DNA from: a virus
Taxonomy: Duplodnaviria > Heunggongvirae > Uroviricota > Caudoviricetes
Virus record (IMG/VR): IMGVR_UViG_2925891887_000008
DNA: 38,557 nucleotides
Reading direction: 5' to 3' (one strand)
The notes under the pieces are model-generated. The model had not been told where the DNA came from, did not search any database, and saw only the letters and a list, made by a program, of their open reading frames with translations. Positions 3,223-37,824 of this stretch are shown here, one piece after another; position 1 is the first letter of the stretch, and every line of letters starts with the position of its first letter. A program made the position numbers and the translations under genes.

Positions 3223-3280
3223 GTTGCCTAAAATTTATTCTATTTAAAATCATGAGGTTAGAAGCACTGTTTTTTAACGA

Positions 3281-3611: not shown

Positions 3612-4712
3612 TCATTCCATTTCGAAATCATCAATCCTCACTTCAAGCTCCAGACTGGTCGTAAAACCGTTATCCGGGCTGACGGTATGCGTCAGAGTCG
3701 TAATGGTCCATTCCGCATCATCTATCGGCTGTTTAAAGCCACTGACTTTCACTGGCATTTCCGTGTAGAGATCTGCCCGACCTTCCGCCAGTTGTAGCGA
3801 GAATGACGCAACGCCGCGTTGCAGGCGTTCCCACTGCATTTTCGCCGCTCGTTCGGCGTTGCTCCGGTTGGCATAAGTGCGATTAAGTACCAGCACGTTT
3901 TCATCCGTACCCACCAGGTAATCGCCCTGCTTCGCTTCCGGCTCTTTCTTCTGCTTCTTAGTCCTGCGCTTACGCTTCACCGTGGTGCTTTCTTTCTTCG
4001 AGGGTTCGCGAGTATGCAACCAGCTGGCAATTACGCCCGTGTAAGCTCCGCGATCTGCCAGGGTAAAGCGGTGACTGTCGCCGTCCTTACGTGTGATAGT
4101 GATCACCGGCAGTGGTTTACCGCTGGCACTTTTACCCTGTCCCTGTCGGATGAATAACAGATTGCCATTTTTCACTGACGCGATAGCACCGTACTGGCGC
4201 GCCAGCCGCATCAGAAAACTGCCGTCACTCTCATTAGTCTGGTCTATATGTTCCACGGGCTTATCCGACAGGTCATTACCCAGTGCCATCTTCAGCTTGT
4301 GACGCGCGGCTATTTCCTTGACCACTTCCCCGACAGTGGTCTTGTGCCACGACTTTTCACGGCGGGTATTCAGCGTTTCACGAAAATCAGCACTTCGCGC
4401 CCGGATAGTCAGGCGGTCCGGTGCGCCAGTGTGTTCAATCTCGTCCACCGTGAATGCCCCTTTCGGGAAAAGCGGCTGCCCCTTCCAGCCCAGCGCCAGC
4501 GTAATGACCGCACCACGGCGCGGCAGCGCTATTTTTCCATCGGCGTCGTCCAGCTCCAGATCAAGCTGGTCCGCTTCAAAGCCCCGGTTATCCGTCAGCG
4601 TCAGCCTCATCAGGCGGTTATCCAGCACAGTGGTGATATCCCTGCCCTCAATACTGATGCTGAATGCGGGAGTTTTGTTGCCTTTGTTAAGCAGTTCAGA
4701 GCTGAAATTCAC
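3612..4712 (-). CDS. D: Tail protein D (late control D family, baseplate hub-like)
   Basis: 366-aa ORF in the P2 gpD position between ogr and U. Start and stop codons overlap its neighbours. Confidence 0.8.
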   Translation of the reverse strand: MNFSSELLNKGNKTPAFSISIEGRDITTVLDNRLMRLTLTDNRGFEADQLDLELDDADGKIALPRRGAVITLALGWKGQPLFPKGAFTVDEIEHTGAPDRLTIRARSADFRETLNTRREKSWHKTTVGEVVKEIAARHKLKMALGNDLSDKPVEHIDQTNESDGSFLMRLARQYGAIASVKNGNLLFIRQGQGKSASGKPLPVITITRKDGDSHRFTLADRGAYTGVIASWLHTREPSKKESTTVKRKRRTKKQKKEPEAKQGDYLVGTDENVLVLNRTYANRSNAERAAKMQWERLQRGVASFSLQLAEGRADLYTEMPVKVSGFKQPIDDAEWTITTLTHTVSPDNGFTTSLELEVRIDDFEME

Positions 4713-5194
4713 GACAGCAGCCCTCCCACCGTTTTACTGATATCACTTAAGGCAGATGTTGCCGTGTCCTGCAGATTATTCAGTTGCGTACTGAGATCAC
4801 CGAACATATCGGACAGGGATTCATCCACCCGTTTGAGCGACAGGGTGAACTCAATCCGCCGCGGCATACCGTCGCGGAAAAACTCCGTTTTAGTCAGATT
4901 CAGTCCCTCAATCACATACATGCCGTAAATCGTGCCGCTGCCTTCAATCAGGGGCCATGCTTTTCCCTGTTCTGCCATCTGCTCCAGAGCCAGCAACGAC
5001 AGCCTGCCGCCCGTTATCTCCGGCATAAGAACACCAGAAAGCGTCAGCATGTCGTTGTCCGGTCCCAGAAACTGCGTGGACGGACGACGGTTTACCCGGC
5101 TGTTTGCCGCATGTCGCCAGCTGCGTTGATACTGCAGTTCCTGATACGGAACGGTGCGCAGCATAAACACGTACAATCCCAGCACCATCATCAT
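4709..5194 (-). CDS. U: Tail protein U
   Basis: 161 aa (P2 gpU is about 159 aa). It is syntenic between T and D, with 4-nt overlaps on both sides. Confidence 0.8.
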   Translation of the reverse strand: MMMVLGLYVFMLRTVPYQELQYQRSWRHAANSRVNRRPSTQFLGPDNDMLTLSGVLMPEITGGRLSLLALEQMAEQGKAWPLIEGSGTIYGMYVIEGLNLTKTEFFRDGMPRRIEFTLSLKRVDESLSDMFGDLSTQLNNLQDTATSALSDISKTVGGLLS

Positions 5195-15312: not shown

Positions 15313-16147
15313 AGGGAAAGGTTGCCATCAATAGCAAGCAGTAGACAGCCTTTGTAATTGTATTAGACATAGAACAAATGCCTTTCAATGGTCTGCGTTA
15401 GAGCATTAATACGTTGCAAAAGGTCGAATGACGTTGCGCAAGTTAAGAAGTTCAATGCTCTTAAAAAAGCACTTGAAAGCAACGCCTTTAATTATTAAAA
15501 GCCAATTAATTTAGGCGGTTACTATGTTATCTTTGACACAAAAGATGTTTATTGACAATATATAAGTTCAATCTAACAAGGAGAAAAATTATGCCAAATG
15601 AAAATCTTGATATTGACTCAAGGACTACCGAGCAATTATACGAATGGTATTTGCAAGGAAATTTGATAGTCAATAGACGTTATCAAAGGAAACTTGTATG
15701 GTCTCTAGAAGAAAAGACTTCTTTAATATCTTCTATGCTGCAACAATATCCTATTCCGTTATTATTATTTGTTACCATCAATGAACAAAGAGAAATATTG
15801 GATGGAATGCAAAGATTAGAAGCAATTATGAGCTTCATCGAACAGAGATTTTCATTAGATGGACAATATTTTGATTTGGACTCTATAGCTTTAACAAAAC
15901 AACTTAAAGATAATGGAACTTTAATTCAGAAAGAACCAATCCTTTCCCGTGATTCTTCAGCAATTATTGCACGTTATCGATTTGCAATATCAGAATATAG
16001 CTCCACAAATGAAAATATTGACGAAGTATTCAGACGAATAAACTCAAACGGGAAGATTTTATCCAAACAAGAATTACGTAGTGCAGGAACAGGGTGATGC
16101 TGCCAACTTACTGATTTAGTGTATGATGGTGTTTTTGAGGTGCTCCA

Positions 16148-16423
16148 GTGGCTTCTGTTTCTATCAGCTGTCCCTCCTGTTCAGCTACTGACGGGGTGGT
16201 GCGTAACGGCAAAAGCACCGCCGGACATCAGCGCTATCTCTGCTCTCACTGCCGTAAAACATGGCAACTGCAGTTCACTTACACCGCTTCTCAACCCGGT
16301 ACGCACCAGAAAATCATTGATATGGCCATGAATGGCGTTGGATGCCGGGCAACCGCCCGCATTATGGGCGTTGGCCTCAACACGATTTTCCGCCATTTAA
16401 AAAACTCAGGCCGCAGTCGGTAA
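16148..16423 (+). CDS. insA: IS1 InsA
   Basis: 91 aa, [32 protein letters not shown]..., recognised as InsA. Confidence 0.95.
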
Positions 16424-16845
16424 CCTCGCGCATACAGCCGGGCAGTGACGTCATCGTCTGCGCGGAAATGGACGAACAGTGGGGATACGTCGGGGCTAAA
16501 TCGCGCCAGCGCTGGCTGTTTTACGCGTATGACAGGCTCCGGAAGACGGTTGTTGCGCACGTATTCGGTGAACGCACTATGGCGACACTGGGGCGTCTTA
16601 TGAGCCTGCTGTCACCCTTTGACGTGGTGATATGGATGACGGATGGCTGGCCGCTGTATGAATCCCGCCTGAAGGGAAAGCTGCACGTAATCAGCAAGCG
16701 ATATACGCAGCGAATTGAGCGGCATAACCTGAATCTGAGGCAGCACCTGGCACGGCTGGGACGGAAGTCGCTGTCGTTCTCAAAATCGGTGGAGCTGCAT
16801 GACAAAGTCATCGGGCATTATCTGAACATAAAACACTATCAATAA
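16342..16845 (+). CDS. insB: IS1 InsB frame (the transposase is made as InsAB' by a -1 frameshift)
   Basis: 167-aa InsB ORF. The A6C slippery run at 16399-16405 lies in the insA/insB overlap. Confidence 0.95.
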
Positions 16846-18218
16846 GTTGGAGTCATTACCCAGGAACAGTTAGTAACTTCTCTGAACTGGTCAGATCGAT
16901 ATCAACATCGATCAGAGGTGATACTAGCCATTCTGACATTATGAATCTCCAGCAAATGCACAAAATTTCAATCAGTAACGATAGATTGGAGTACGGGGTA
17001 AATATCGATAACCACTTTTATATAAAACATCATATTTTAACAAGACGAAGTATTCGTGATTCTGATGACGAGGAATTGATAGCCAATATCCTTGCATATA
17101 TCAGTCTAGAAGAAAAACCCACATCTGGGTCAACTTCTCTCGACACATTCTATGGTCAAGGAAACTCCTCTCATGCTCATGGTGTCAGACAGCAATTAGA
17201 GTCTTTCATTCAAACCAATAACGCTGCCACTATTAAGCAGAATTTCATAGCTGTATATGAATTAATTACAAGCCTATATGACGGAAAAAATGATACTTTT
17301 AGAAGCCATATTTTAGGGGAGGATAATTCATCTCAAGAATGCCCTCGTTATTATCAAGCTGTGTTTTTGTCTATTTATGAACTTCTTTTCAACCAAAATA
17401 TGCAATTAATTGATAAAGAAGGTTTATTCTCGCAATTAAAAAACACTGGCAATACCATAATTATGGTTACCGATGGTGGCCGCTGGGCTGCAAGCACTCG
17501 TGAAAAAAGTGTTAATGATCTTGTTGCATTAATAAGTCGTTACTTCCAACCTGCTCCTCAAAAGTATGTGAATCATGCTTGGGTAACTGAAATTCGCAAT
17601 CTATTAACAAATTCTAGAACTGAACAACCAAGTTATGATTTCAAACAAGGGTTCTTTAATTTATCAGGTAAAAATGAATTTGATGATGAATGTTTAAAAG
17701 GAATATTACAAACTTGCGTAGCAATAAATAATATTGGAAAAAGCGCAAAAGGCTATATTTTAGTTGGTATTGCCGAAAATAAATTAACCGCAGATAGAAT
17801 TCAACATTTATATGGAGTAAATTCAATTGAGTTCAATGGGTTCTATATAAACGGAATTGATCATGAAGCAATGTTAGTCTCTGGTAGCATTGATGATTAC
17901 TTTATGTTAATAAAACAAAAAATACAAGGATACAATTTCACTGAAACTCTAAAACAGCAGATACTTAAGAATATTGAGTTTTGCTCTTACAATGGCTTAC
18001 ACATACTCAAGATAACTATTCAGAGCACAGGTCAAATTTGCGACTTTGAGAATATGTTTTATATCAGACAAGGCTCATCGACTGATCCAGTTACGGATAC
18101 ACAAAAAATCTCAGCTCTATTTAACTCTTACATGAACAGCTAATCAATCGCCATCTCCACTGGAGCTGGCTTATGGATAAAAACAAAAGACGAGAGGGCT
18201 ATTTAAACCTCCTCGTCT

Positions 18219-23792: not shown

Positions 23793-25559
23793 ATGAACAC
23801 CACACTGACACTCGCAGATCTCGATCCCCGTCGGCAGGCCATGCTGCTGTACTTTCAGGGATACCGCGTAGCCCGCATTGCTGAAATGCTGGGCGAGAAA
23901 GTTTCAACCGTTCACAGCTGGAAAAAACGCGACAAGTGGGGTGACTATGGGCCGCTGGATCAGATGCAGCTCACCACCGCCGCACGCTACTGCCAGCTCA
24001 TTATGAAGGAGCACAAAGAAGGGAAAGATTTCAAAGAGATTGACCTGCTGGCGCGCCAGTCGGAACGCCACGCGCGGATCGGCAAGTTTAACAATGGCGG
24101 CAACGAAGCCGACTTAAACCCTAACGTCGCCAACCGCAACAAAGGCCCACGCCGTCAGCCGGAAAAGAACGTTTTCACCGATGAACAGATTGAGAAGCTG
24201 GAAGAAATCTTCCATTCCTCCATGTTCAACTACCAGCGCCACTGGTGGGAAGCTGGAAAAACCAACCGCATCCGCAACCTGCTGAAGTCACGCCAGATCG
24301 GCGCGACCTTTTACTTTGCCCGTGAAGCCCTGATTGACGCCCTGCTTACCGGACGTAACCAGATTTTCCTTTCCGCCAGTAAGGCACAGGCTCACGTCTT
24401 TAAGCAGTACATCATCGACTTCGCTAAAGAAGTGGAGGTGGAGCTGAAAGGCGATCCGATGGTGCTTCCTAACGGGGCCACGCTTTACTTCCTCGGCACC
24501 AATGCCCGCACGGCCCAGAGTTATCACGGCAACCTGTATCTGGATGAATATTTCTGGATACCGAAATTCCAGGAGCTGCGCAAAGTGGCTTCCGGTATGG
24601 CTATTCACAAAAAATGGCGACAAACCTATTTTTCCACGCCATCCAGCCTGACACACAGTGCTTATCCGTTCTGGTCCGGTGCGCTGTTCAACCGTGGGCG
24701 CAACAAAGCCGATAAGGTGGACATCGACCTGTCCCACAGCAATCTGGCCCCCGGCCTGCTGTGCGCAGACGGGCAATACCGCCAGATAGTCACCGTAGAA
24801 GATGCGGTGCGCGGCGGCTGTAACCTGTTCGACCTTGACCAGTTGCGCATGGAATACAGCCCGGACGAATACCAGAACCTGCTGATGTGTGAGTTCGTGG
24901 ACGATCTCGCGTCCGTGTTCCCGCTCAGCGAGCTGCAGGCGTGCATGGTGGACAGTTGGGAAGTCTGGACCGACTTTCATGCACTGGCCCTGCGCCCGTT
25001 TGGCTGGCGCGAAGTGTGGATCGGTTATGACCCGGCAAAAGGTACGCAGAACGGCGACAGCGCCGGATGCGTGGTGGTGGCACCGCCAGCCGTGCCGGGC
25101 GGTAAGTTCCGCATTCTTGAGCGTCACCAGTGGCGCGGAATGGACTTCCGCGCCCAGGCTGACGCCATCAAAAAACTGACCGAACAGTATAACGTGACCT
25201 ATATCGGCATCGACTCGACCGGCGTCGGTCACGGGGTTTACGAGAACGTGAAAGCGTTTTTTCCTGCCGTCAGGGAGTTTGTCTACAACCCCAACGTTAA
25301 AAACGCCCTGGTACTCAAGGCCTACGACATTATCAGCCACCGCCGTCTGGAGTTTGACGCCGGGCACACCGACATTGCGCAGTCATTTATGGCAATCCGT
25401 CGCGCCACCACCGCCAGCGGCAACCGCCCGACCTATGAAGCCAGCCGCAGCGAAGAAGCCAGCCACGCCGATCTGGCCTGGGCAACGATGCACGCATTGT
25501 TTAACGAACCGCTGCAGGGCGAATCCGCCAATACCAGCAATATTGTGGAGATTTTTTGA
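23793..25559 (+). CDS. P: Terminase large (ATPase) subunit P
   Basis: 588 aa (P2 gpP is about 590 aa), divergent from O, with a TGATG overlap with Q. Confidence 0.9.
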   Translation: MNTTLTLADLDPRRQAMLLYFQGYRVARIAEMLGEKVSTVHSWKKRDKWGDYGPLDQMQLTTAARYCQLIMKEHKEGKDFKEIDLLARQSERHARIGKFNNGGNEADLNPNVANRNKGPRRQPEKNVFTDEQIEKLEEIFHSSMFNYQRHWWEAGKTNRIRNLLKSRQIGATFYFAREALIDALLTGRNQIFLSASKAQAHVFKQYIIDFAKEVEVELKGDPMVLPNGATLYFLGTNARTAQSYHGNLYLDEYFWIPKFQELRKVASGMAIHKKWRQTYFSTPSSLTHSAYPFWSGALFNRGRNKADKVDIDLSHSNLAPGLLCADGQYRQIVTVEDAVRGGCNLFDLDQLRMEYSPDEYQNLLMCEFVDDLASVFPLSELQACMVDSWEVWTDFHALALRPFGWREVWIGYDPAKGTQNGDSAGCVVVAPPAVPGGKFRILERHQWRGMDFRAQADAIKKLTEQYNVTYIGIDSTGVGHGVYENVKAFFPAVREFVYNPNVKNALVLKAYDIISHRRLEFDAGHTDIAQSFMAIRRATTASGNRPTYEASRSEEASHADLAWATMHALFNEPLQGESANTSNIVEIF

Positions 25560-26626
25560 TGGGAAAGAGTAAGAAGAACCGCGCTGCGGCGACGAAACAG
25601 ATCCAGCTTAAAAGCCAGACTACAGCCGAAGCATTCAGCTTCGGCGATCCCGTTCCTGTTCTGGACCGCCGAGAACTGCTGGACTATGTGGAATGCGTAC
25701 AGATGGACCGTTGGTATGAGCCGCCCGTCAGCTTTGACGGACTGGCGCGCACCTTCCGCGCTGCCGTGCATCACAGTTCCCCGATTGCAGTAAAGTGCAA
25801 CATTCTGACCAGTACCTATATCTCTCATCCACTGCTCAGCCAACAGGCTTTTTCGCGTTTTGTGCAGGACTATCTGGTATTTGGTAACGCCTACCTGGAG
25901 AAACGCACGAATCGATTCGGTGAAGTTATCGCCCTTGAGCCTGCGCTGGCAAAATACACCCGACGCGGGTTAGACCTGGATACCTACTGGTTTGTGCAAT
26001 ACGGTATGGCCACGCAGCCGTATCAGTTCACGAAAGGCAGCATTTTTCATCTGATGGAACCGGACATCAACCAGGAGATCTACGGCCTGCCCGGTTATCT
26101 TTCAGCCATTCCGTCCGCCCTGCTCAATGAGTCCGCCACGCTGTTCCGTCGAAAGTATTACATTAACGGCAGTCATGCTGGCTTCATCATGTACATGACC
26201 GACGCTGCGCAGAACCAGGAGGATGTGAACAACCTCCGCAACGCGATGAAAAGCGCCAAAGGTCCAGGCAACTTCCGCAATCTGTTTATGTACTCGCCTA
26301 ACGGCAAAAAGGACGGACTTCAGATTATCCCGTTGTCAGAAGTCGCAGCGAAGGATGAGTTTCTGAATATCAAGAACGTGAGCCGCGATGACATGATGGC
26401 TGCGCATCGTGTGCCGCCACAAATGATGGGGATAATTCCCCAGAACATCGGCGGCTTTGGGGATGTAAGCAAAGCAAGTAAGGTATTTGTTCGTAACGAA
26501 CTGACGCCTTTACAAAGGCGAATACAAGAACTTAATGAGTGGCTATGTGACGAGGTTATCAAGTTTGACCCCTACAAACTTGATATTGAAGATAACAATC
26601 ACTCTGCTATCATACCTATCATCTAA
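25559..26626 (+). CDS. Q: Portal protein Q
   Basis: ATG 25559 gives 355 aa (the track start at 25556 is a TTG). It is syntenic after P and transcribed toward cos, as in P2. Confidence 0.9.
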   Translation: MGKSKKNRAAATKQIQLKSQTTAEAFSFGDPVPVLDRRELLDYVECVQMDRWYEPPVSFDGLARTFRAAVHHSSPIAVKCNILTSTYISHPLLSQQAFSRFVQDYLVFGNAYLEKRTNRFGEVIALEPALAKYTRRGLDLDTYWFVQYGMATQPYQFTKGSIFHLMEPDINQEIYGLPGYLSAIPSALLNESATLFRRKYYINGSHAGFIMYMTDAAQNQEDVNNLRNAMKSAKGPGNFRNLFMYSPNGKKDGLQIIPLSEVAAKDEFLNIKNVSRDDMMAAHRVPPQMMGIIPQNIGGFGDVSKASKVFVRNELTPLQRRIQELNEWLCDEVIKFDPYKLDIEDNNHSAIIPII

Positions 26627-26631: not shown

Positions 26632-26654
26632 AACCGCCATCAGGCGGTTTTTTG
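26632..26654 (+). terminator. Rho-independent terminator after Q
   Basis: Stem AACCGCC, loop atca, stem GGCGGTT, followed by TTTTTG. Confidence 0.7.
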
Positions 26655-26710
26655 TTTCCAAACCAAACCTACTATGATACACACAGTAGGAAAAAAATTG
26701 GAGCATTTAT

Positions 26711-27337
26711 ATGGATATCGAAAAGCTAAAAGAATTTTACGAAAAACTTTACTTTCAGGAAACGGAAAATAAAGACAAGATTTACAACAGAATTCAAATG
26801 ATATTTGGATTAATAGTAATCGACGCAACTATCGTAACATATCTGCTTAAAAACACATCCTTTGAAAATCATGCATTCTTTGCCTGCATTGTTATAGGAC
26901 TTTCATTATTATCAGTGTTTTTTATTTATAAAGCCTGCATGCTCCTAAAAAAAGCATTTTGGGGTAATGAATTCAAATACATTCCCAAACCTAAGGAAAT
27001 AGACGAATACTACAATGGCCTCATTAAATATGAAGCAGACTATAAAAAATATTGTGATAATAATGGGCTTACCTATAATGGTGAGCACTCATCAAGTAAA
27101 AAGTTCAATGAATACTTAGTAAAACAACTAGTAGAGTGTACTAGTTGGAATACTAAGAAAAATGAAATGAGAACAAGTCAAATATATCGAGCCACTAAAT
27201 TCTTTTTTTTCTCACTAATTCCATTAGTGATAGCGGTTGGCTTTTTTTTAGCGATGGATCTCGATTCAGCCTCGCCAAGGAAGACTAATGAGCCACATTT
27301 CATTATTATACCTGTAGATAATATCAGGAGATTATGA
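26711..27337 (+). CDS. Hypothetical membrane protein with three predicted transmembrane helices (cargo)
   Basis: 208-aa ORF with GGAG 7 nt before the ATG. It is AT-rich, with hydrophobic helices at about aa 28-46, 55-73 and 164-183 and a Lys/Tyr/Asn-rich soluble middle. I recognise no family. Confidence 0.7.
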   Translation: MDIEKLKEFYEKLYFQETENKDKIYNRIQMIFGLIVIDATIVTYLLKNTSFENHAFFACIVIGLSLLSVFFIYKACMLLKKAFWGNEFKYIPKPKEIDEYYNGLIKYEADYKKYCDNNGLTYNGEHSSSKKFNEYLVKQLVECTSWNTKKNEMRTSQIYRATKFFFFSLIPLVIAVGFFLAMDLDSASPRKTNEPHFIIIPVDNIRRL

Positions 27338-27462
27338 TGGGAAAAGCCCCTACACCTAACAAGCCACCAGCGAAGACTCCAACTCCGCCGACACCGCCGA
27401 CACCGCCTAAATCTAGGCTAGTGAGAGACGATGATTCGAAAGCCAAAAGCAAAAGAGGTTAA
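27334..27462 (+). CDS. Polyproline micro-ORF 1 (42 aa; 41 aa if ATG 27337 is used)
   Basis: MMGKAPTPNKPPAKTPTPPTPPTPPKSRLVRDDDSKAKSKRG. AGGAG at 27326-27330 precedes it, and the ATGATG start overlaps the stop of the 208-aa gene. Hand-translated, because it falls below the ORF-track cutoff. Confidence 0.55.
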   Translation: MMGKAPTPNKPPAKTPTPPTPPTPPKSRLVRDDDSKAKSKRG

Positions 27463-27468
27463 AGTATC

Positions 27469-27642
27469 ATGATAAAGCCCAGCAACGAAGGAACTGGAAA
27501 ACCAAATTCTACAAGTAAATCACCTGTACCGCCTCAGCCGCCTCAGCCGCCTCAGCCGCCTCAGCCGCCTCAAACAAGGTTAGTACGAGAAAGCTTTGGA
27601 GAATACATTTCAAAGAGAGATACGAAAAATGACAAAAAATAA
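27469..27642 (+). CDS. Polyproline micro-ORF 2 (57 aa)
   Basis: MIKPSNEGTGKPNSTSKSPVPPQPPQPPQPPQPPQTRLVRESFGEYISKRDTKNDKK. It starts 6 nt after the stop of micro-ORF 1 and shares the PP-x-[ST]-R-L-V-R-[DE] motif with it. Confidence 0.55.
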   Translation: MIKPSNEGTGKPNSTSKSPVPPQPPQPPQPPQPPQTRLVRESFGEYISKRDTKNDKK

Positions 27643-27736
27643 CGAGCAAAAACCACCACCACCACCACCACCACCACCACTACCACCATCGTCCCGCATG
27701 CTATTTGATCACGCGGCCCCCCCTAAGAAGAAATAA
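27629..27736 (+). CDS. Polyproline micro-ORF 3 (35 aa)
   Basis: MTKNNEQKPPPPPPPPPLPPSSRMLFDHAAPPKKK. It overlaps the end of micro-ORF 2 by 14 nt in another frame and has a purine-rich stretch upstream. A terminator follows directly. Confidence 0.5.
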   Translation: MTKNNEQKPPPPPPPPPLPPSSRMLFDHAAPPKKK

Positions 27737-27740
27737 CCTT

Positions 27741-27770
27741 AAGCCTGCGACTTAGCAGGCTTTCTTCATT
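27741..27770 (+). terminator. Rho-independent terminator closing the cargo operon
   Basis: Stem AAGCCTGC, loop gactta, stem GCAGGCTT, followed by TCTTCATT. It begins 5 nt after the stop of micro-ORF 3. Confidence 0.6.
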
Positions 27771-27778: not shown

Positions 27779-27797
27779 CTCGTATCCCCGCCACGCC
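27779..27797 (-). other. Probable cos cohesive-end sequence
   Basis: The reverse complement GGCGTGGCGGGGATACGAG shares its first 13 nt with the 186 cohesive end, and 12 of those 13 with the P2 end, as I remember them (GGCGTGGCGGGGAAAGCAT and GGCGAGGCGGGGAAAGCAC). Its orientation relative to Q matches P2. Confidence 0.5.
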
Positions 27798-28139: not shown

Positions 28140-28565
28140 ATGAAAAGCTTTTACGTATTAATTTTAATTCTGGTTGCAAGCTTTGTTAGCGTCCCAGTTC
28201 AGGCGGTAACAGCTAAAAACTATGAGAAAGGAACTAAAGCTCAACAGAAATCAATATCTTACCTTTCATGTGCATTCTATGGCAGTAGCACACAATTAGA
28301 TCCTAGCTACACGGAGCAAGTACCTACAGCCGATATCAAGATATTACAGAAAGCAGCTTACCACGCTTACAACGATGCGCTCTCATACTTTGGCTATGAG
28401 GAACCAGATCACGAACAACGCATAATTGATTATGCTGAATTTGTGGCGTCGCAAGAAGCTGTGTTATGGGATAAGCCGGGAATGAATGGAAAGCAGGTAA
28501 CACTAATTGCTCGTTCTCTCTACAATGAGAGTAACTGTAACTTGTTACTGGACTCAATTAAGTAG
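28140..28565 (+). CDS. Hypothetical exported protein (cargo)
   Basis: 141 aa with GAGG upstream. It has a Sec-type signal peptide, MKSFYVLILILVASFVSVPVQA/VT, and is AT-rich. I recognise no family. Confidence 0.65.
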   Translation: MKSFYVLILILVASFVSVPVQAVTAKNYEKGTKAQQKSISYLSCAFYGSSTQLDPSYTEQVPTADIKILQKAAYHAYNDALSYFGYEEPDHEQRIIDYAEFVASQEAVLWDKPGMNGKQVTLIARSLYNESNCNLLLDSIK

Positions 28566-28724: not shown

Positions 28725-28958
28725 TTAATGCAGCCAGCTGTCGTCTTCCCACACCTTCTGCATAATCTTCATCACTTGTTTTCTTTCTTCGTCCAGTTGC
28801 AGTCCGGTCAGTTCCACACCGTTAGAGCTACCTTTGCGGATGCGAATTACCGTTTTGGGATACAGGGGGCGCAGATTGCGGTAAAGCTCGGATTCAAGGG
28901 CGTCCAGGGTAGACTGGCTAATCTTCTGCTCTTTATCGATCATTATTTCAATGCGCAT
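28725..28958 (-). CDS. DinI-family protein
   Basis: From ATG 28958 (GAGGTGA upstream) the ORF is 77 aa: MRIEIMIDKEQKISQSTLDALESELYRNLRPLYPKTVIRIRKGSSNGVELTGLQLDEERKQVMKIMQKVWEDDSWL. It aligns with E. coli DinI (MRIEVTIAKT...ILQETWESADDW). Confidence 0.75.
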   Translation of the reverse strand: MRIEIMIDKEQKISQSTLDALESELYRNLRPLYPKTVIRIRKGSSNGVELTGLQLDEERKQVMKIMQKVWEDDSWLH

Positions 28959-28968
28959 AAAGGTCACC

Positions 28969-29157
28969 TCAGCTGATGACATCCATTGAGCGGTTGTATT
29001 CGTGGGTTCTGATTTTTGCCATGAGTTCATCTGTCAGTTCAGAAACCCACTGCAAAGCCAGCCCCTTCTCTTCATCACTACACTCACTAGCCGCTACAAG
29101 CTTAAGAAAAAAATCAATGCGCTGGAGCTTCAAAGACTCCAAAAAATAGTCCTGCAT
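28969..29157 (-). CDS. Small SOS-controlled protein in the position of the 186 Tum antirepressor
   Basis: ATG 29157 with GGAGGA upstream gives 62 aa (MQDYFLESLKLQRIDFF...). LexA boxes lie immediately upstream and a DinI-like gene 10 nt downstream. The assignment as antirepressor rests on position only. Confidence 0.45.
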   Translation of the reverse strand: MQDYFLESLKLQRIDFFLKLVAASECSDEEKGLALQWVSELTDELMAKIRTHEYNRSMDVIS

Positions 29158-29310: not shown

Positions 29311-31725
29311 TTAATACAGGTTTCGCCACTTATCATCTTCCTGCAAACGCTGGTTCCGATAGAAGATACGCAGGCCTGCTCCTGACGGAATACTGCCGCC
29401 GCGAAGGAGTAAATCGACCTCTTTCTCGCTGCCATTAAATCCTCTGGACTTCAGTTCATAGACGAGCTGCTGTCGCTGATGGTCTGTAATTCGCTGTTTG
29501 TAGTCTTTACGCCGTTTCGGTTTCACCAGGCGTAACCTTGCAGCCAGTTCCCGGCGCTCTTTTTTGCTCATACTGTGCAGGTAATCGTGCAACTCCTTGT
29601 CATCCATGCGGGTAATGTCCGTCCTAGTATCCCCATCAGCTGATTTGTCTTTCCCTTGTTGGTTCAAATTTTCAGCAAGGGGACAGTTATTGCCACGAGT
29701 CCAAGGGGCGCAAGCGCCCTGGTCGGCTGCCGCCTCCTGAACGTCAACGGCCTTACGAACCATTTTCCACTTCACCGCATGAGTGCAGATCTTGCCCTCT
29801 GCAATGGGTGACCAGATGCCATAAATACGAATACCGTGATCGCCATATGCGGTCGGTTCTTCGTTGATTTCATAAGCAGTTCTGATGAGGTGATATTTGC
29901 GGGGAACCAGTACGCCTCCCTGCTTCATGATGTAGGTGGCAAAACAACCAGCATCGGCAGCAGCCAGGATTGCATCAAGGCGCGGGTTATCCAGTACCGG
30001 CGCACCTGCTTTTTTGTCCCCCTGTTGCCTTGCCGCCTGACCAGCCAGCAATCGCAGTTCACGGTAAGCCTGACGCCCCGGAATGCCAAAGAAGCGGAAT
30101 TGCTGAACACGATGCAGAGACGCCCAGGCATTAACGTATTCAGCGTTATCACGCAGGGATTTACCCGTTTCCTTGCTGATCTCGCCAGCCAGACCACGCC
30201 CGTCAATGTTCTTACTGATGTATTTCGCGATGTAGCTTGTTGGCGTACCTTTGCGCGGGTTTATCAGCTCAGACTTAAAGCGTGGTCCCGTGTTATTACC
30301 CAGCTCCTCGCGGTCTTCACGAATGGCAAACTTACGCAACAAAGCAGTAATGGTGCGGCGATCTTTTTTGCGCATAAAACACAACAGGTGCCAGTGAACT
30401 GTACCGTCATGATGCGGCTCAGCCACCCGCACGCCATACCAGCGCAATCCGGCTTTGTGCATCGCCTTACGAAATGCAGCAAACATGCCGACCAGATAAT
30501 CACTGCTTTGTCTTACCGTCGTATTTGTCCAGGTCGGGTTGGGCCTGCCGTTATTTAGCGTGGAATGGAAACGTGACGGACAGGTGATGGTGTAGAAAAC
30601 GGCGCAGTCACCGCGCATTTCCGCGATAAGCTCCAGACCTTTAACACAGGCCATCATCTCATTGCGGCGATGCGCAGGGTTGCTGCTGCTGGCGTTTACC
30701 ACATCCTCCATGTCCAGCGTGTCGCCGTCTTCGTTCACCAGTTCATGAGAACGGAAAAACTCCAGCGACTTACGGCGCTGCTCACGTTTATGCATCATGG
30801 CTTCATAGCTGACATAGGGAGATGCTTTTTTGCTGACCAGGCAAACAGCACGCAACTGCTCTTCCCGCCATTCGCAACGCATCTTCCATAATTTCCGGTA
30901 CCACCAATCGGCGCACAACATACGCGCCAGCGAACCCGGAATGAGTTCATAGGGCACGGGTTTACGGCGGTTTCTTTTCCGGCGGAGTTGCTCAAACGCA
31001 GGCGGTATGACATCCAGTCGCAGGGTTTCTGCTGCCACCTTTTCCCATGTCTTGCGGATTTCTTCTGGCTTAACGTCATCGGTGGCATACAAATCGCCAC
31101 AAGCTGCATCAAGGCACATGCTCATATGCGCAGCAACAAGGGTGGACAGGCGTTTCACCTGATCCTGACTCATTTCAGGCAGAATCAGCAGGCCGTCCAG
31201 CCCTTCATGGCTTGCCATAAAGCGAAAAGAAGTGGATAGCTGACTGTCGCGTACATGCTCCAGCCGTTCCAGACATGGCTTAATCGTCTCACGTAAATAG
31301 CGGGAATAAGCCTTTGGCCTGCCAAGGCTGCTGAAGTATTCAATACGTTGCATCAGCGGCCTGCTGATATGGGAAGGCTGGGCGTTAACGTCTGCCAGAA
31401 TGACCATGTCCGGGTTAAAACGCTGCTGCTCATGCGCCAACTTTGCCCGGCTAATGAACTTATCCTGCTCCATTTCGCGCTGGACAGGATCACGGGATTC
31501 ATTAAAGAAATAACGCTCCCAAACCTGATCACTCAGTGCCTCGCGGCGCAGTTGTTCCTGCTCGTTATCGGCAGCGTACAGAGTGATCAGGTTTGAAAGC
31601 GCAGAAACCGGCGCAACTTCCGCCGGGTCCAGATAAGGGTTAATAGCCTTTTTCGGGCTGTTCCATGAGAATGCTGCGGCGGCCTCGTTAAAGCCGCTGC
31701 AGTTGTTCATATCAGCATGGCTCAT
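29311..31725 (-). CDS. A: Replication initiation protein A (rolling-circle HUH nickase)
   Basis: 804 aa with an HUH-like motif ([13 protein letters not shown]) and paired tyrosines ([11 protein letters not shown]), as in P2 gpA. Confidence 0.85.
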
Positions 31726-34481: not shown

Positions 34482-34505
34482 GATAAAAGTTCACTTGGAG
34501 TGACC

Positions 34506-35075
34506 ATGAATTTGGAGAAAGGCGGACGAGGCGCTATAGAGCGCATGGTAGAAGCTTATGGATTCAAAACTCGACAGGCGTTGTGCGATCATTTAGGAAT
34601 CTCTAAAAGTACACTCGCTACACGCTACATGCGTGACTCATTCCCAGCAGAATGGGTAATCCAGTGCGCCCTTGAAACGGGCACCTCGCTTAATTGGCTC
34701 ACAACTGGACATGGTTCAAAGCAAACTTCAGGTAATACAAATACGATGGAAGTTGCTAAATATGTATTATCTGATGGTGCCTTGCGTGAAGACGGTTTTT
34801 ATATTTTTGATAAGGGATTTCTACCCTCTACGTTTAAAAAACCTTTTGTCATCACAGATAACAATTCTGAATTTATTTGTGATAAAGAATTTGATGATAT
34901 ACGTGATGGTAAATGGGTAATAAGTATTGATGGCGAAATAACAATCCGCGACATTACTCGTTTACCCGGTGGAAGAATCTTCGTTGAAGGTGGAAACAGA
35001 ACCTTCGAGTGCAAGATAGAAGATGTTGAAATAATTGGAAAAATTATAAGTTTGACAATTAAGTACGTTAGGTAA
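34506..35075 (+). CDS. cI: CI immunity repressor (186 type)
   Basis: ATG 34506 (GGAG 5 nt upstream) gives 189 aa. The N-terminal HTH region ...MVEAYGFKTRQALCDHLGISKSTLATRYMRD...CALETGTSLNWLTTGHG resembles 186 CI. Confidence 0.8.
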   Translation: MNLEKGGRGAIERMVEAYGFKTRQALCDHLGISKSTLATRYMRDSFPAEWVIQCALETGTSLNWLTTGHGSKQTSGNTNTMEVAKYVLSDGALREDGFYIFDKGFLPSTFKKPFVITDNNSEFICDKEFDDIRDGKWVISIDGEITIRDITRLPGGRIFVEGGNRTFECKIEDVEIIGKIISLTIKYVR

Positions 35076-35433: not shown

Positions 35434-36749
35434 GGGTCTTCCCTTGTTGTGGTGGCTGAAGGCATGATAATGGTGTATTTAATCGCCAGAGGTCACCGCC
35501 ATGGACGAAAAGTCCCTCTACGCTCATATTCTCAACCTGTCCGATCCGTGGCAGGTAAAGTCCCTTTCTCTCGATGAAAATGCCGGTTCTGTTACTGTCA
35601 CTATTGAGATCGCTGAAAACACCCGGCTAGCCTGTCCGACCTGCGGTAAATCCTGTTCTGTTCACGATCACCGTCATCGTAAATGGCGCCATCTTGATAC
35701 CTGCCAGTTCACCACTATTGTTGAAGCCGATGTTCCACGAATTATGTGTCCGGAGCATGGCTGCCTGACGTTGCCTGTTCCGTGGGCTGGCCCCGGAAGC
35801 CGGTATACGTTGCTATTCGAATCGTTCGTTCTCTCATGGCTGAAAATCAGCACCGTTGATGCTGTCAGGAAGCAACTTAAGCTCAGTTGGAATGCGGTTG
35901 ACGGCATTATGACCCGGGCAGTTAAGCGAGGTCTTGCCCGGATAAAAAAGCCATTATCCGCCCGTCATATGAATGTGGATGAGGTCGCCTTTAAAAAAGG
36001 ACATCGTTACATAACGGTGATCTCCGATCGCGATGGTCGGGCGCTGGCCTTAACGGATGATCGCGGCACAGAGAGTCTTGCCGGCTATCTTCGCACGCTC
36101 ACTGATGGGCAGTTGCTGGCTATCAAAACGCTCTCAATGGACATGAACGCGGGCTATATAAGAGCAGCGCGTATCCACTTACCCAGTGCGGTTGAGAAAA
36201 TCGCCTTTGACCGCTTCCATGTGGCGAAGCAACTGGGCGAGGTAGTTGATAAAACCCGTCAGAATGAACATCCGCACCTCCCTGTTGAAAGCCGACACCA
36301 GGCAAAAGGAACCCGCTTCCTGTGGCAGTACAGCGATAAGTGGATGACCGAATCCCGGCAGGAAAAGCTGATGTGGCTGCGTGCACAGATGAAGCTGACG
36401 AGCCAGTGCTGGGCGCTGAAAGAGCTGGCAAAGGATATCTGGAACAGGCCATGGAGCGAGGAAAGACGGAGTGACTGGCAGAGATGGTTGGCGCTGGCGG
36501 CTAACAGTGACGTTCCCATGATGAAAAATGCCGCGAAAACGATAGGAAAAAGGCTGTACGGGATCCTGAATGCGATGCGACACAGTGTCTCAAACGGAAA
36601 TGCGGAGGCACTTAACAGCAAGATCAGGCTGCTGAGGATAAAAGCCAGGGGATACCGAAACCGGGAGCGCTTTAAACTGGGGGTGATGTTCCACTACGGA
36701 AAGCTGAATATGGCGTTCTGAGCCTTCCCACCATGATCGGGGAAGACCC
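35434..36749 (+). mobile_element. ISL3-family insertion sequence (1316 bp)
   Basis: Imperfect terminal inverted repeats: GGGTCTTCCC...TGGTGG at 35434, and its reverse complement ending at 36749. The element is flanked by the 8-bp direct duplication TTATACAT (35426-35433 and 36750-36757). Confidence 0.85.
35501..36721 (+). CDS. ISL3-family transposase
   Basis: 406 aa with an N-terminal zinc-finger region (CPTCGK...H..H) and a DDE-type core. Overall it resembles ISL3-family transposases. Confidence 0.8.
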   Translation: MDEKSLYAHILNLSDPWQVKSLSLDENAGSVTVTIEIAENTRLACPTCGKSCSVHDHRHRKWRHLDTCQFTTIVEADVPRIMCPEHGCLTLPVPWAGPGSRYTLLFESFVLSWLKISTVDAVRKQLKLSWNAVDGIMTRAVKRGLARIKKPLSARHMNVDEVAFKKGHRYITVISDRDGRALALTDDRGTESLAGYLRTLTDGQLLAIKTLSMDMNAGYIRAARIHLPSAVEKIAFDRFHVAKQLGEVVDKTRQNEHPHLPVESRHQAKGTRFLWQYSDKWMTESRQEKLMWLRAQMKLTSQCWALKELAKDIWNRPWSEERRSDWQRWLALAANSDVPMMKNAAKTIGKRLYGILNAMRHSVSNGNAEALNSKIRLLRIKARGYRNRERFKLGVMFHYGKLNMAF

Positions 36750-36792
36750 TTATACATACAGTAAAAATGCTCTCTATTGGAGGGCATTTTTT

Positions 36793-37824
36793 ATGGCAGT
36801 ACGAAAACTCACCACAGGAAAATGGCTTTGCGAATGTTACCCCGCCGGACGTAGTGGGCGTCGTGTGCGTAAACAATTCGCCACCAAAGGCGAAGCACTG
36901 GCTTTTGAGCGTCACACGATGGAAGAAACCGAAGCAAAGCCCTGGCTGGGCGAATCAGTAGATCGTCGAACCCTGAAAGACGTGGTTGAGCTATGGTTCA
37001 AACTACATGGTAAATCTCTGACTGCTGGGCAGCATGTCTATGACAAATTGCTGCTGATGGTTGACGCTCTGGGCAATCCCCTTGCAACCGATCTCACATC
37101 TAAAATGTTTGCCCATTATCGAGATAAACGACTGACAGGTGAGATCTACTTCAGCGAGAAATGGAAGAAAGGGGCCAGCCCGGTCACCATTAACCTGGAG
37201 CAAAGCTATCTAAGTAGTGTTTTTAGCGAACTATCCCGCCTGGGCGAATGGTCGTATCCAAACCCACTGGAGAACATGCGAAAATTCACCATCGCAGAAA
37301 AAGAGATGGCATGGCTTACCCATGAGCAGATTGTTGAACTGCTGGATGATTGCAAACGTCAGGACCCAATTCTGGCACTGGTAGTCAAGATATGCTTAAG
37401 CACAGGCGCACGCTGGCGAGAAGCAATAAACCTAACCCGATCACAGGTGACCAAATACCGAATTACCTTTGTAAGAACGAAGGGGAAGAAAAACAGAAGC
37501 ATCCCTATCAGTAAAGAGCTTTATGAAGAGATCATGGCGCTTGATGGGTTCAATTTCTTCACAGACTGCTATTTTCAATTTTTATCCGTGATGGAAAAAA
37601 CGTCTATCGTGCTCCCTCGCGGTCAACTTACACACGTTCTGCGTCATACGTTTGCGGCGCATTTCATGATGTCGGGTGGAAACATCCTTGCTTTGCAAAA
37701 AATCCTCGGACATCACGACATAAAAATGACTATGCGTTATGCTCATCTATCACCTGATCACTTAGAGACAGCTCTTCGTTTCAATCCACTAGCAACTTTG
37801 GATGTTACTAAATCAGATTCTTAA
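36793..37824 (+). CDS. int: Tyrosine integrase (P2/186 type)
   Basis: ATG 36793 (MAVRKLTTGKWLCECYP...) gives 343 aa. Catalytic signature: ARWREAINL, HVLRHTFA and MRYAHL. The track start at 36733 lies inside the IS end. Confidence 0.9.
   Translation: MAVRKLTTGKWLCECYPAGRSGRRVRKQFATKGEALAFERHTMEETEAKPWLGESVDRRTLKDVVELWFKLHGKSLTAGQHVYDKLLLMVDALGNPLATDLTSKMFAHYRDKRLTGEIYFSEKWKKGASPVTINLEQSYLSSVFSELSRLGEWSYPNPLENMRKFTIAEKEMAWLTHEQIVELLDDCKRQDPILALVVKICLSTGARWREAINLTRSQVTKYRITFVRTKGKKNRSIPISKELYEEIMALDGFNFFTDCYFQFLSVMEKTSIVLPRGQLTHVLRHTFAAHFMMSGGNILALQKILGHHDIKMTMRYAHLSPDHLETALRFNPLATLDVTKSDS

What the first reader, a model, noticed from the sequence alone, without database searches (positions are those of the whole stretch)
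26632..27770. Self-contained AT-rich cargo operon between portal gene Q and cos: a three-helix membrane protein plus three polyproline micro-ORFs
Q ends at 26626 and the cos-like 19-mer lies at 27779-27797. As I remember P2 and 186, Q ends only about 0.1 kb from cos, so roughly 1.1 kb here is extra. The insert is bracketed by two stem-loop/T-tract terminators (26632-26654 and 27741-27770) and is visibly AT-rich next to GC-rich late genes. It encodes four co-directional, tightly packed ORFs. The first is a 208-aa protein with three hydrophobic helices. Its stop overlaps the next start (ATGATG at 27334-27339), and peptides of 42, 57 and 35 aa follow. A possible promoter (TTGTTT-N15-TATGAT, 26652-26678) and a small hairpin (CCTACT...AGTAGG, 26668-26690) precede the first gene. 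Nothing here resembles a P2/186 structural, lysis, packaging or replication function. The location is continuous with the tum/old/tin-to-cos variable region, which in P2-like phages is known to carry anti-phage cargo. I could not place the 208-aa protein in a named family. Its topology resembles the small membrane effectors of abortive-infection systems. This is my best candidate for an undescribed lysogen-expressed defence or exclusion module.
Basis: partly seen in the sequence, partly recalled or inferred. Interest (0 to 1): 0.85.

Follow-up and report, generated by a model that had tools for sequence, protein, structure and literature searches.

The report
Membrane protein plus three proline-rich microproteins
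A P2/186-type prophage carries, right next to its DNA-packaging site, a small self-contained operon for a membrane protein and three tiny proline-rich proteins. It looks like an uncharacterised, peptide-controlled membrane effector in a known anti-phage hotspot, but its function is untested.

Summary
About 1.1 kb of AT-rich cargo lies between portal gene Q and cos, bracketed by two terminators. It encodes a 208-aa three-helix membrane protein and three co-directional microproteins of 42, 57 and 35 aa.

The microproteins are real genes. All three recur, each with its own C-terminal motif, behind every complete relative of the membrane protein down to 47% identity. Their dN/dS is 0.11-0.22, against 0.14 for the membrane protein.

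The membrane protein belongs to a large unnamed family (1160 clusters). It has no Pfam or NCBIfam match and only weak PADLOC matches to CBASS '2TM', PycTM and RT-SLATT effectors. Many relatives are 250-310 aa and carry one copy of the same proline-rich element as a C-terminal tail, often preceded by an internal ribosome-binding site and ATG. The microproteins are therefore a detached, triplicated tail.

The Q-cos-A interval is the published P2 defence hotspot. One allele of this protein is listed there only as an untested single '2 TM' protein.

Best reading: a SLATT-like membrane effector controlled by its tail peptides, acting in abortive infection or exclusion. Function, trigger and topology are not established.

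The parts
26632..26654 (+). Rho-independent terminator after portal gene Q, equivalent to tQ of P2
   Evidence: 7-bp stem with 5 GC pairs plus a T run. P2 has tQ in the same place.
26652..26678 (+). Putative own promoter: -35 TTGTTT at 26652-26657, 15-nt spacer, -10 TATGAT at 26673-26678
   Evidence: Read from the sequence. TATGAT is kept at the same distance from the start codon in L012 and L017, whose flanks otherwise differ. No transcription data.
26668..26690 (.). Inverted repeat CCTACT...AGTAGG overlapping the -10 element
   Evidence: 9-pair stem. Not conserved in relatives, so its role is unknown.
26711..27337 (+). ORF1: 208-aa membrane protein with three hydrophobic helices and a helical bundle. 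Member of a large unnamed family weakly similar to 2TM/PycTM/SLATT effectors
   Evidence: dN/dS 0.14. RefSeq WP_048237166, 'hypothetical protein'.
27334..27462 (+). Microprotein A (42 aa, or 41 from the second ATG): proline-rich tract followed by SRLVRDDDSKA
   Evidence: AGGAG ribosome-binding site and a start overlapping the ORF1 stop. Orthologues in all relatives. dN/dS 0.11. Tail-HMM E 3.7e-3.
27385..27407 (+). 9-bp tandem repeat CCGCCGACA x2.6 (TPP units) inside microprotein A
   Evidence: One more copy in strain 20KM2222.
27469..27642 (+). Microprotein B (57 aa): proline-rich tract followed by TRLVRESFGEY
   Evidence: dN/dS 0.12. Tail-HMM E 4.8e-5.
27529..27572 (+). 9-bp tandem repeat CCGCCTCAG x4.9 (PPQ units) inside microprotein B
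   Evidence: Copy number is 2.9 to 5.9 among otherwise near-identical prophages.
27629..27736 (+). Microprotein C (35 aa): nine consecutive prolines, then LPP, followed by SRMLFDHAAPPKKK. Its start overlaps the end of B by 14 nt
   Evidence: dN/dS 0.22. Tail-HMM E 3e-6. Closely resembles the C-terminus of Vibrio homologue P0161.
27652..27688 (+). (CCA)12 trinucleotide repeat encoding the polyproline run of microprotein C
   Evidence: One unit longer in strain PC-NDM34.
27741..27770 (.). Bidirectional terminator closing the operon
   Evidence: 8-bp stem with 5 GC pairs, found on both strands.
27779..27797 (.). cos-like cohesive-end sequence. It marks the boundary of the cargo and is not part of the module
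   Evidence: 97-100% match to the annotated cos of phage Cartapus and to P2-like Klebsiella phages. Conserved next to the module in 22 fetched loci.

Best explanation
This is a four-gene cargo operon ('moron') with its own promoter and terminators. It sits in the cos-proximal defence hotspot of a P2/186-type prophage.

ORF1 is a three-helix inner-membrane protein. Its core is distantly related to the SLATT-type '2TM' effectors of CBASS, Pycsar and RT-based systems. Those effectors are thought to permeabilise the membrane.

The three microproteins are detached, triplicated copies of the proline-rich C-terminal tail that longer family members carry on the same polypeptide. Each has a short N-terminal stretch, a proline-rich spacer and a short conserved motif (RLVRDDD, RLVRESY or SRMxFDH).

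I infer that the tail motif binds the membrane protein. It would do so in cis when tethered and in trans when free, and it would keep the protein inactive. Tight translational coupling would supply the peptides in fixed ratio. Loss, sequestration or degradation of the peptides during infection would release the effector. The cell would then be depolarised or killed before the invading phage completes its cycle.

Shown here: operon anatomy, coding status of all four genes, homology of the microproteins to the fused tails, and the hotspot location.

Inferred: membrane permeabilisation, inhibition by the tails, the trigger, and any anti-phage effect.
For: - **Anatomy.** Terminators, overlapping or adjacent start and stop codons, and ribosome-binding sites before each ORF.
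- **Real genes.** The 1+3 arrangement is present in every complete relative. These are L003, L005-L008, L012, L014, L016 and 12 of the 14 IMG/VR loci (L023 and L036 are too short to show all three). ORF1 identity in this set goes down to 47%. The three orthologous motif classes are preserved. dN/dS between the window and L012 is 0.14 (ORF1), 0.11, 0.12 and 0.22.
- **Family size.** 1160 cluster representatives at E<=1e-3.
- **Fused tails.** 39 of the fetched relatives carry a linker plus a proline-rich tract and a motif such as VRVVLEDF or ARTFKEDAPPKTNK after the same core. An HMM built only from those fused tails ranks microproteins C, B and A as the top 3 of 855 six-frame segments of the window, with E 3e-6, 4.8e-5 and 3.7e-3; the next segment scores 0.43.
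- **Free tail in fused genes.** 30 of 39 fused tails have a Met within 25 residues before the tract. In the three loci with DNA, that ATG is preceded by GAGG, GGAAG or AGGAGG. This suggests the free tail is also made from the fused genes.
- **Intermediate forms.** L019 and L040 have a fused tail plus an extra free micro-ORF.
- **Effector similarity.** Hits to PycTM (E 2.8e-6), CBASS 2TM and RT-SLATT models span nearly the full 160-176-residue profiles.
- **Defence neighbourhood.** The P2 hotspot. Tn7-like cargo where the homologue's stop overlaps the start of a type I hsdR. A neighbouring SMODS system in Vibrio. A reverse-transcriptase (RVT_1) gene about 3 kb away in the Serratia loci.
Against: - No functional or expression data exist for any family member.
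- No Pfam SLATT model is matched by any of 38 members. The PADLOC hits are weak and come from only some members.
- AlphaFold2 leaves the tail of a fused homologue disordered and undocked, with pLDDT about 40. There is no structural support for tail-core binding.
- Topology conflicts with the model. With three membrane helices and a cytoplasmic helical bundle, as expected from the effector similarity, the C-terminus and any fused tail would face the periplasm. The free microproteins have no signal peptide.
- Flanking charges do not settle the orientation.
- The gene order (putative toxin first) is unusual for toxin-antitoxin pairs.
Confidence: 0.4

Rival explanations
1. Membrane anchor or scaffold. 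The membrane protein is not a toxin. It is a docking platform that recruits proteins carrying the tail motif to the inner membrane. In the P2 version the three microproteins would be adaptors or decoys. They would bind a host or phage factor at the membrane, for example at the DNA-entry site, and so exclude superinfecting phages.
For: In L044-L046, Tn7-like cargo, the short homologue is start/stop-coupled to a type I HsdR. That HsdR has a 55-73-aa N-terminal extension that starts M-S/T-K/N, has a proline-rich stretch and ends PRT[IV]LE. This is the same layout and the same gene position as microprotein A. Three distinct, separately conserved tail classes suggest three different partners.
Confidence: 0.2
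2. Addiction or stabilisation module. A membrane toxin with labile peptide antitoxins that mainly stabilises the prophage or other mobile element, with no dedicated anti-phage role.
For: Tight coupling of a membrane protein with small, unstructured, probably unstable peptides. Relatives sit among ParDE and RelE/Phd cassettes on a Vibrio plasmid and next to ParDE in an Edwardsiella prophage.
Against: The cargo is rare and patchy in P2-like prophages: 19 of 5426 genomes. The fused single-polypeptide forms cannot work as a classical two-component addiction pair. Toxin-antitoxin and abortive-infection roles are not mutually exclusive.
Confidence: 0.15
3. Periplasm-facing exclusion protein. The C-terminus and its proline-rich rod project into the periplasm, as in TonB, and block DNA injection or tail-tip function of incoming phages.
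For: The three-helix model with the bundle inside places the C-terminus outside. Proline-rich spacers are typical of periplasm-spanning proteins (own knowledge of TonB).
Against: The microproteins have no signal peptide, membrane segment or cysteine for a lipobox. Internal ribosome-binding sites would make a cytoplasmic free tail. The tail-like extension sits on the cytoplasmic enzyme HsdR.
Confidence: 0.07
4. Other lysogenic-conversion function. One example is cationic proline-rich peptides acting like proline-rich antimicrobial peptides on ribosomes or on competitors, with ORF1 as exporter or immunity protein. Another is a stress or envelope function.
For: The peptides are cationic (net about +4 to +7) and 25-45% proline. 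This composition recalls ribosome-targeting proline-rich antimicrobial peptides (own knowledge; Onc112 as described in 10.1101/511675).
Against: There are no PRP repeats, no leader peptide and no dedicated exporter. The tethered forms in most of the family argue against a secreted product.
Confidence: 0.08
5. The micro-ORFs are chance reading frames in simple-sequence DNA, and only ORF1 is a gene.
For: RefSeq annotates none of them in this allele. In one strain it calls an antisense ORF instead.
Against: Amino-acid motifs are conserved across saturated synonymous divergence, with dN/dS 0.11-0.22. All copy-number changes are in frame. Each ORF has a ribosome-binding site. The micro-ORFs are homologous to the fused tails.
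Confidence: 0.02

Closest known systems
SLATT-type '2TM' membrane effectors (CBASS 2TM effectors, Pycsar PycTM, RT-associated SLATT of DRT3/DRT10)
   Same: N-terminal helix, a hairpin of two membrane helices and a helical domain of similar overall size. Weak but near full-length HMM matches. Carried on mobile elements and in defence neighbourhoods.
   Different: No Pfam SLATT hit. No cyclase, SLOG or reverse transcriptase in the operon. A third hydrophobic helix followed by an invariant D-x-D-x-S-S-P-R-K motif. A proline-rich tail or free microproteins, which I did not find described for those effectors.
Cargo of the P2-like gpA-gpQ (cos-proximal) hotspot (Rousset et al. 2022, PMC9122126), e.g. 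old, tin, '2TM-1TM-TIR', '3 HP'
   Same: Same interval, same moron-like organisation, rare and swappable among related prophages. An allele is listed there as system #96, '2 TM'.
   Different: It lies on the Q side of cos, within 17 nt of the cohesive end. Old and tin lie on the A side. It was not tested. Its microproteins were not recognised. It matches none of the PADLOC models, and that library does hold an HEC-05 model from the hotspot-candidate series. hhalign found no relation to the P4 'Hydrolase + 3TM' membrane protein.
Membrane toxin / small-protein antitoxin pairs and holin-antiholin pairs
   Same: A small membrane protein whose activity could be set by a co-expressed small partner. 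Overlapping genes.
   Different: There are three distinct partners, all soluble, proline-rich and basic. The partner is a detachable piece of the effector's own C-terminus. No sequence relation to a known pair was found.
Proline-rich antimicrobial peptides (oncocin, apidaecin, Bac7)
   Same: Short, cationic and proline-rich.
   Different: Those peptides are made by animals and are secreted. They have PRP motifs. Here the conserved part is a non-proline motif after the tract, and the element is usually tethered to a membrane protein.

Membership tests
Cargo of the P2-like cos-proximal (gpA-gpQ) defence hotspot | Located between replication gene A and portal gene Q, next to cos | tested here: met
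   Q at 25556-26626, cos at about 27779-27797, gpA at 29311-31725. The same Q-module-cos order is seen in L005-L008 and in the 12 IMG/VR loci long enough to show it.
Cargo of the P2-like cos-proximal (gpA-gpQ) defence hotspot | Variable presence among closely related prophages | tested here: met
   Present in 19 of 5426 complete E. coli genomes. P2 itself has only 167 bp here.
Cargo of the P2-like cos-proximal (gpA-gpQ) defence hotspot | Demonstrated protection against phages | not testable with these tools
   Listed but not tested in PMC9122126: absent from Tables S2A and S2B.
SLATT / 2TM effector superfamily | Significant match to a curated SLATT model (Pfam SLATT_1-6) | tested here: not met
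   No SLATT hit for ORF1 or for any of 38 family members at E<=0.01.
SLATT / 2TM effector superfamily | Match to defence-effector HMMs (PADLOC CBASS 2TM, PycTM, RTasSLATT) | tested here: inconclusive
   ORF1 against PDLC00669: E 2.1e-4. P0031 against PycTM: 2.8e-6 over profile positions 35-157 of 160. P0027 against 2TM (2.4e-3) and RTasSLATT (7.7e-3). Most members give no hit.
SLATT / 2TM effector superfamily | N-terminal helix plus two-helix membrane hairpin plus helical domain | tested here: met
   AlphaFold2 helices 3-48, 55-84, 94-117 and 128-187, with pLDDT 78-79. Hydrophobicity profile. This family has an extra third hydrophobic helix.
SLATT / 2TM effector superfamily | Operon partner that makes a signal (SMODS/CD-NTase, SLOG, cyclase or reverse transcriptase) | tested here: not met
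   None in the window operon. In L018 a SMODS gene is adjacent, but it is coupled to its own multi-TM protein.
SLATT / 2TM effector superfamily | Membrane permeabilisation on activation | not testable with these tools
   Needs toxicity and depolarisation assays.
Named defence systems in PADLOC-DB v2.0.0 (Vassallo PD-*, PDC candidates, and at least HEC-05 of the hotspot-candidate series) | HMM match of the components to a system model | tested here: not met
   Only the generic effector hit above. The microproteins give no hit. The library does contain HEC-05 and PD-T4-2 models.
Toxin-antitoxin module (membrane toxin with protein antitoxin) | Toxicity of one component, neutralised by the other | not testable with these tools
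   Only coupling and overlap of the genes is shown.
Spanin / Rz1-like proline-rich lipoprotein | Signal peptide with lipobox cysteine | tested here: not met
   None of the three microproteins has a cysteine or a hydrophobic N-terminus.
Proline-rich antimicrobial peptides | Repeated PRP/PxP-Arg motifs and secretion | tested here: not met
   The tracts are TPP, PPQ and poly-P, without PRP repeats. There is no leader. Ribosome binding cannot be tested here.

The most novel reading that the evidence does not exclude
A large, unnamed family of SLATT-like membrane effectors (more than 1000 sequence clusters) is gated by a portable proline-rich 'ball-and-chain' peptide. The peptide can be tethered to the effector's own C-terminus. 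It can also be made free from an internal start, split off and triplicated as in P2-like phages, or possibly grafted onto another immune protein (type I HsdR). The effector would fire when the peptide or its carrier is removed or captured by a phage factor. The slippage-prone proline tracts would tune spacer length between near-identical prophages. This would be a self-contained, microprotein-controlled abortive-infection or guard mechanism with no enzymatic sensor.
Probability: 0.25. Interest if true: 0.85.

Novelty: new variant of a known kind. Interest (0 to 1): 0.62.

Why it matters
If the module defends against phages, it would add a very compact system to the P2 hotspot. The system is about 1 kb and has four genes, three of which encode microproteins that annotation pipelines miss. 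It would also give a function to a family of more than a thousand protein clusters that has no name.

The fused, split and internally initiated forms give a ready-made set of natural variants. They could be used to test how a membrane effector is held in check by a short peptide.

The case also shows that gene-arrangement censuses of hotspots under-count systems whose partners are shorter than about 60 aa. The published census lists this module as a single '2 TM' protein.

Tried and rejected
- **Family libraries.** Pfam and NCBIfam gave nothing above threshold for ORF1 or the microproteins. PHROGs gave only an unknown-function family, phrog_36961.
- **Comparison with a tested system.** hhalign against the '3TM' protein of the tested P4 'Hydrolase + 3TM' system showed no relation.
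- **Phage records.** The 50,697 phage records hold neither the cargo DNA nor a relative of ORF1 or of P0163.
- **Genome scans.** The first genome-contig scan found no relative. The broad alignment was too divergent for a viral scan.
- **Tail docking.** AlphaFold2 of a natural fused homologue was meant to show whether the tail docks on the core. The tail stayed disordered.
- **EF-P idea.** I considered that the polyproline runs serve as an EF-P-dependent translation sensor. I set this aside as a general explanation, because many family tails have only PxP or PP spacing and no run of three or more prolines. It may still matter for the P2 subfamily.
- **ClpX-binding idea.** I noticed that the motif resembles the ClpX-binding LRVVK peptide of SspB (recalled from memory). 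I did not pursue it: the motif is too short to test by sequence.
- **Literature.** Searches for proline-rich or polyproline defence components and for the RefSeq accessions found nothing relevant.
Full report
**Setting.** The window is a P2/186-type prophage read with the late genes on the + strand.
- The large terminase gene P is at 23793-25559.
- The portal gene Q is at 25556-26626 (Pfam Phage_portal, E 1.8e-17).
- A cos-like sequence lies near 27779-27797.
- A DinI-like gene is at 28725-29030 (- strand).
- The replication gene A is at 29311-31725 (- strand).
- A Dam methylase, CII, CI and the integrase lie further on.
- Window 27767-27800 matches the annotated 'putative cos site' of phage Cartapus at 97%.

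**Check of the observation.**
- GC falls to 0.30-0.34 across ORF1, against 0.53-0.63 in P and Q.
- A hairpin with a T run follows Q at 26632-26649. A bidirectional hairpin closes the segment at 27741-27762. The scan found 7 terminator-like sites against 1.7 expected.
- ORF1 (26711-27337, 208 aa) ends in TGA inside ATGATG. ORFs of 42, 57 and 35 aa follow. The last overlaps the third by 14 nt.
- Each ORF is preceded by a purine-rich ribosome-binding site. For the 42-aa ORF, the AGGAG is better spaced for the second ATG.
- In the P2 reference, cosL is 1-19, terminator tQ is 160-181 and Q begins at 187. About 1.0 kb is therefore extra here. It is inserted between the Q terminator and a point 17 nt from the cohesive end.
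- The three proline tracts are exact tandem repeats: CCGCCGACA x2.6, CCGCCTCAG x4.9 and (CCA)12.

**Distribution.**
- Thirteen of 5426 complete E. coli genomes carry this allele at 97.7-99.3% identity. Six more carry an allele whose ORF1 is 51% identical.
- No record in the phage collection holds the cargo DNA or a relative of ORF1.
- Among near-identical copies there is one point difference in ORF1. Nearly all other differences are in-frame gains or losses of repeat units: one extra TPP unit, 2.9 to 5.9 PPQ units, and one extra CCA.
- The exception is a 1-nt deletion in an A6 run in strain PC-NDM34. It fuses the third and fourth ORFs in frame.
- The tracts therefore change much faster than the rest of the sequence and, being multiples of three, stay in frame.
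- RefSeq annotates only ORF1 (WP_048237166 and WP_021518687, 'hypothetical protein'). In one strain it calls an antisense ORF across the second microprotein.

**The micro-ORFs are genes.**
- I fetched relatives of ORF1 at 75%, 58%, 51%, 50% and 49% identity from metagenomes, Serratia, E. coli and other sources, plus 14 IMG/VR viral contigs.
- Every locus with enough downstream sequence has proline-rich micro-ORFs in the same order. They fall into three orthologous classes:
  - A: ...[KR]R[LIW]V[RIV][DE]DDS[KR]A...
  - B: ...R[LM][VI][RQ]ES[FY]G...
  - C: MTKN..K-Pn-SRM[LVA][FY]DH..KKK
- This pattern holds. The degraded Serratia copy keeps B and C, and the Edwardsiella copy keeps A and C.
- Between the window and L012, synonymous sites are near saturation (pS 0.36-0.59). 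dN/dS is 0.14 for ORF1 and 0.11, 0.12 and 0.22 for A, B and C.
- In nearly all enterobacterial loci the order is Q, module, cos. Q identity ranges from 76% to 100%. One relative sits after ogr in another P2-like element. One sits in a lambdoid Edwardsiella prophage.

**The family of ORF1.**
- A profile search of 1.84 billion cluster representatives found 1160 relatives at E<=1e-3 and 341 at E<=1e-10.
- Conserved features are an N-terminal helix (YEKLYF.E..NKDK), two hydrophobic helices, WGN.FKY, a helical region ending C...N...NE.R, a third hydrophobic helix, and a nearly invariant D-L-D-x-S-S-P-R-K.
- AlphaFold2 gives an all-helical model with helices 3-48, 55-84, 94-117 and 128-187. Mean pLDDT is 78.7 for ORF1. 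The core of homologue P0163 scores above 90.
- Fold and sequence searches of solved and viral structures return only generic helical bundles.
- There is no Pfam or NCBIfam family. PHROGs has an unknown-function family.
- PADLOC gives weak hits that nevertheless span almost the whole effector profile. ORF1 hits a CBASS '2TM' effector at E 2.1e-4. P0031 hits PycTM at 2.8e-6. P0027 hits a 2TM effector and an RT-associated SLATT. P0102 hits PycTM and 2TM.
- I read this as a distant relationship to the SLATT-type membrane effectors. These are predicted pore-forming toxins (as summarised in 10.64898/2026.04.29.721553). The curated SLATT membership test is not met.

**The microproteins are a detached tail.**
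- Many relatives are 250-310 aa. After the SSPRK motif they have a poorly conserved, helix-forming linker. This is followed by a proline-rich tract and a short motif, for example PPVRVVLEDY, PKMRIILEDF, PEPRDIIESE or QVSLEDYKGP.
- In the Vibrio protein P0161 the tail reads NMSEQKPPTPPPPPQAPAQPVARTFKEDAPPKTNK. This is very close to microprotein C: MTKNNEQKPPPPPPPPPLPPSSRMLFDHAAPPKKK.
- An HMM built only from 39 fused tails ranks C, B and A as the three best of 855 six-frame segments of the window. The E-values are 3e-6, 4.8e-5 and 3.7e-3, and the next segment scores 0.43.
- Thirty of the 39 fused tails have a Met, usually M-[STC]-[DEN], within 25 residues before the tract. Methionine makes up 1.8% of the tail regions overall.
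- In the three fused genes for which I hold DNA, that ATG is preceded by GAGG (6 nt), GGAAG or AGGAGG (8 nt). The tail may therefore also be made as a free peptide from the fused genes.
- Mixed forms exist. L019 and L040 have a fused tail plus an additional free micro-ORF, with tail-HMM E 4.7e-4 and 8.3e-10.
- The P2 subfamily is thus the fully split version with three diverged copies.

**Neighbourhoods.**
- The Q-cos-A interval is the P2 hotspot of Rousset et al. 2022. They catalogued 18,150 loci and 169 systems and tested eight additional systems beyond old and tin.
- Their Table S5A lists WP_048237166 and WP_021518687 as 'hypothetical'. Table S5B lists the 51% allele as system #96, with no Pfam, 33 occurrences, one protein and '2 TM'.
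- The module is absent from the tables of tested systems. A later survey of P2 and P4 hotspots does not mention it in its main text.
- Outside P2-like phages, relatives occur in several settings:
  - next to a SMODS gene that is coupled to its own multi-TM protein in Vibrio splendidus;
  - in an island beside smpB;
  - among toxin-antitoxin cassettes on a Vibrio plasmid;
  - about 3 kb from a reverse-transcriptase (RVT_1) gene in Serratia;
  - as the first cargo gene of a Tn7-like element (TnsD, TnsE) in V. brasiliensis, Dasania and a Cellvibrionaceae genome.
- In the Tn7-like case the homologue's stop overlaps the start of a type I HsdR, and HsdM follows.
- That HsdR has an N-terminal extension ahead of the HSDR_N domain, which starts at residue 74. 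It reads MSKENSNQELTVPLVSSMSGRPKPPKPRTVLEMM... and has the layout and the gene position of microprotein A. Its score against the tail HMM is weak, at E 0.05-2.7. I treat it as a lead, not a finding.

**Mechanism.** What is shown:
- a conserved, translationally coupled operon;
- a membrane protein with remote similarity to killing effectors;
- three microproteins that are homologues of that protein family's own C-terminal tail.

From the fused, mixed and split forms I infer that the tail motif acts on the membrane protein itself. The most economical model is that it holds the effector closed, in cis or in trans, and that loss of the peptide during infection releases it. This is inference. AlphaFold2 leaves the tail undocked, and I could not run a multimer prediction.

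One point remains unexplained. The model and the effector similarity put the helical bundle in the cytoplasm and the C-terminus outside. Yet the free microproteins lack signal peptides, the internal starts would give cytoplasmic peptides, and HsdR is cytoplasmic. Flanking-charge counts over 38 members do not decide the orientation, because K+R density is equal on both faces. Either the third hydrophobic helix does not span the membrane in the resting state, or the orientation is the reverse of what the effector analogy suggests.

**Rivals.** Four rivals remain open, and each has a direct experimental test: a membrane docking platform, a stabilisation toxin-antitoxin module, a periplasm-facing exclusion protein, and another conversion function. 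The reading that the micro-ORFs are spurious is excluded.

**Verdict.** The defence interpretation is plausible by location, neighbourhood and remote similarity, but it is untested. The hotspot and the effector class are known. The new elements are the peptide-tail architecture, its split and triplicated form with slippage-prone proline tracts, and the size of the unnamed family. I found none of these in the databases and literature searched.

Noticed in passing
window 15552-18143: A second cargo slot lies inside the tail genes, at the Z/fun position. It holds a GmrSD_N/DUF262 fragment (PADLOC NsnA 1e-21, PD-T4-2_A 5e-18) cut by an IS1 transposase gene (16342-16845). A 400-aa Schlafen AlbA_2 protein follows. 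This looks like a defence gene disrupted by IS1.
   Followed up: partly
window 35501-36721: An ISL3-family transposase gene is inserted between the CI repressor gene (34500-35075) and the integrase gene (36733-37824) of the prophage.
   Followed up: no
window 28140-28565: On the other side of cos there is a 141-aa protein with a signal-peptide-like N-terminus (phrog_7437, E 4e-99; WP_000834899). Its function is unknown. It recurs in many arrangements in Table S5A of PMC9122126.
   Followed up: partly
L002 (E. coli PC-NDM34) 3910-4083; window 27634: This strain has a 1-nt deletion in the A6 run, which fuses microproteins B and C in frame. RefSeq annotates an antisense 57-aa ORF (WP_222701163) across microprotein B.
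   Followed up: partly
L044, L045, L046: about 3001-6220: In Tn7-like cargo, a short ORF1 homologue overlaps the start of a type I hsdR. That HsdR has an N-terminal extension of 55-73 aa with a proline-rich stretch and PRT[IV]LE, resembling the microproteins. hsdM follows.
   Followed up: partly
L018 7118-8796: In Vibrio splendidus, a SMODS nucleotidyltransferase gene overlaps a 268-aa multi-TM protein gene with no Pfam match. The pair lies 218 bp downstream of the ORF1 homologue and looks like a separate two-gene signalling system.
   Followed up: partly
P0129 (family member), C-terminus: The tail reads ...KHHRHHHRCQ, which is what a frameshifted CCA/CCG proline tract would encode. It is a probable slippage or sequencing variant.
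   Followed up: no
L005 and L007 5302-6870: On the A side of cos in prophages carrying the 51% allele there are three co-directional genes of 138, 87 and 297 aa with no Pfam domain. This could be the three-gene domain-less system that PMC9122126 reports as active against P1. I did not check this.
   Followed up: no
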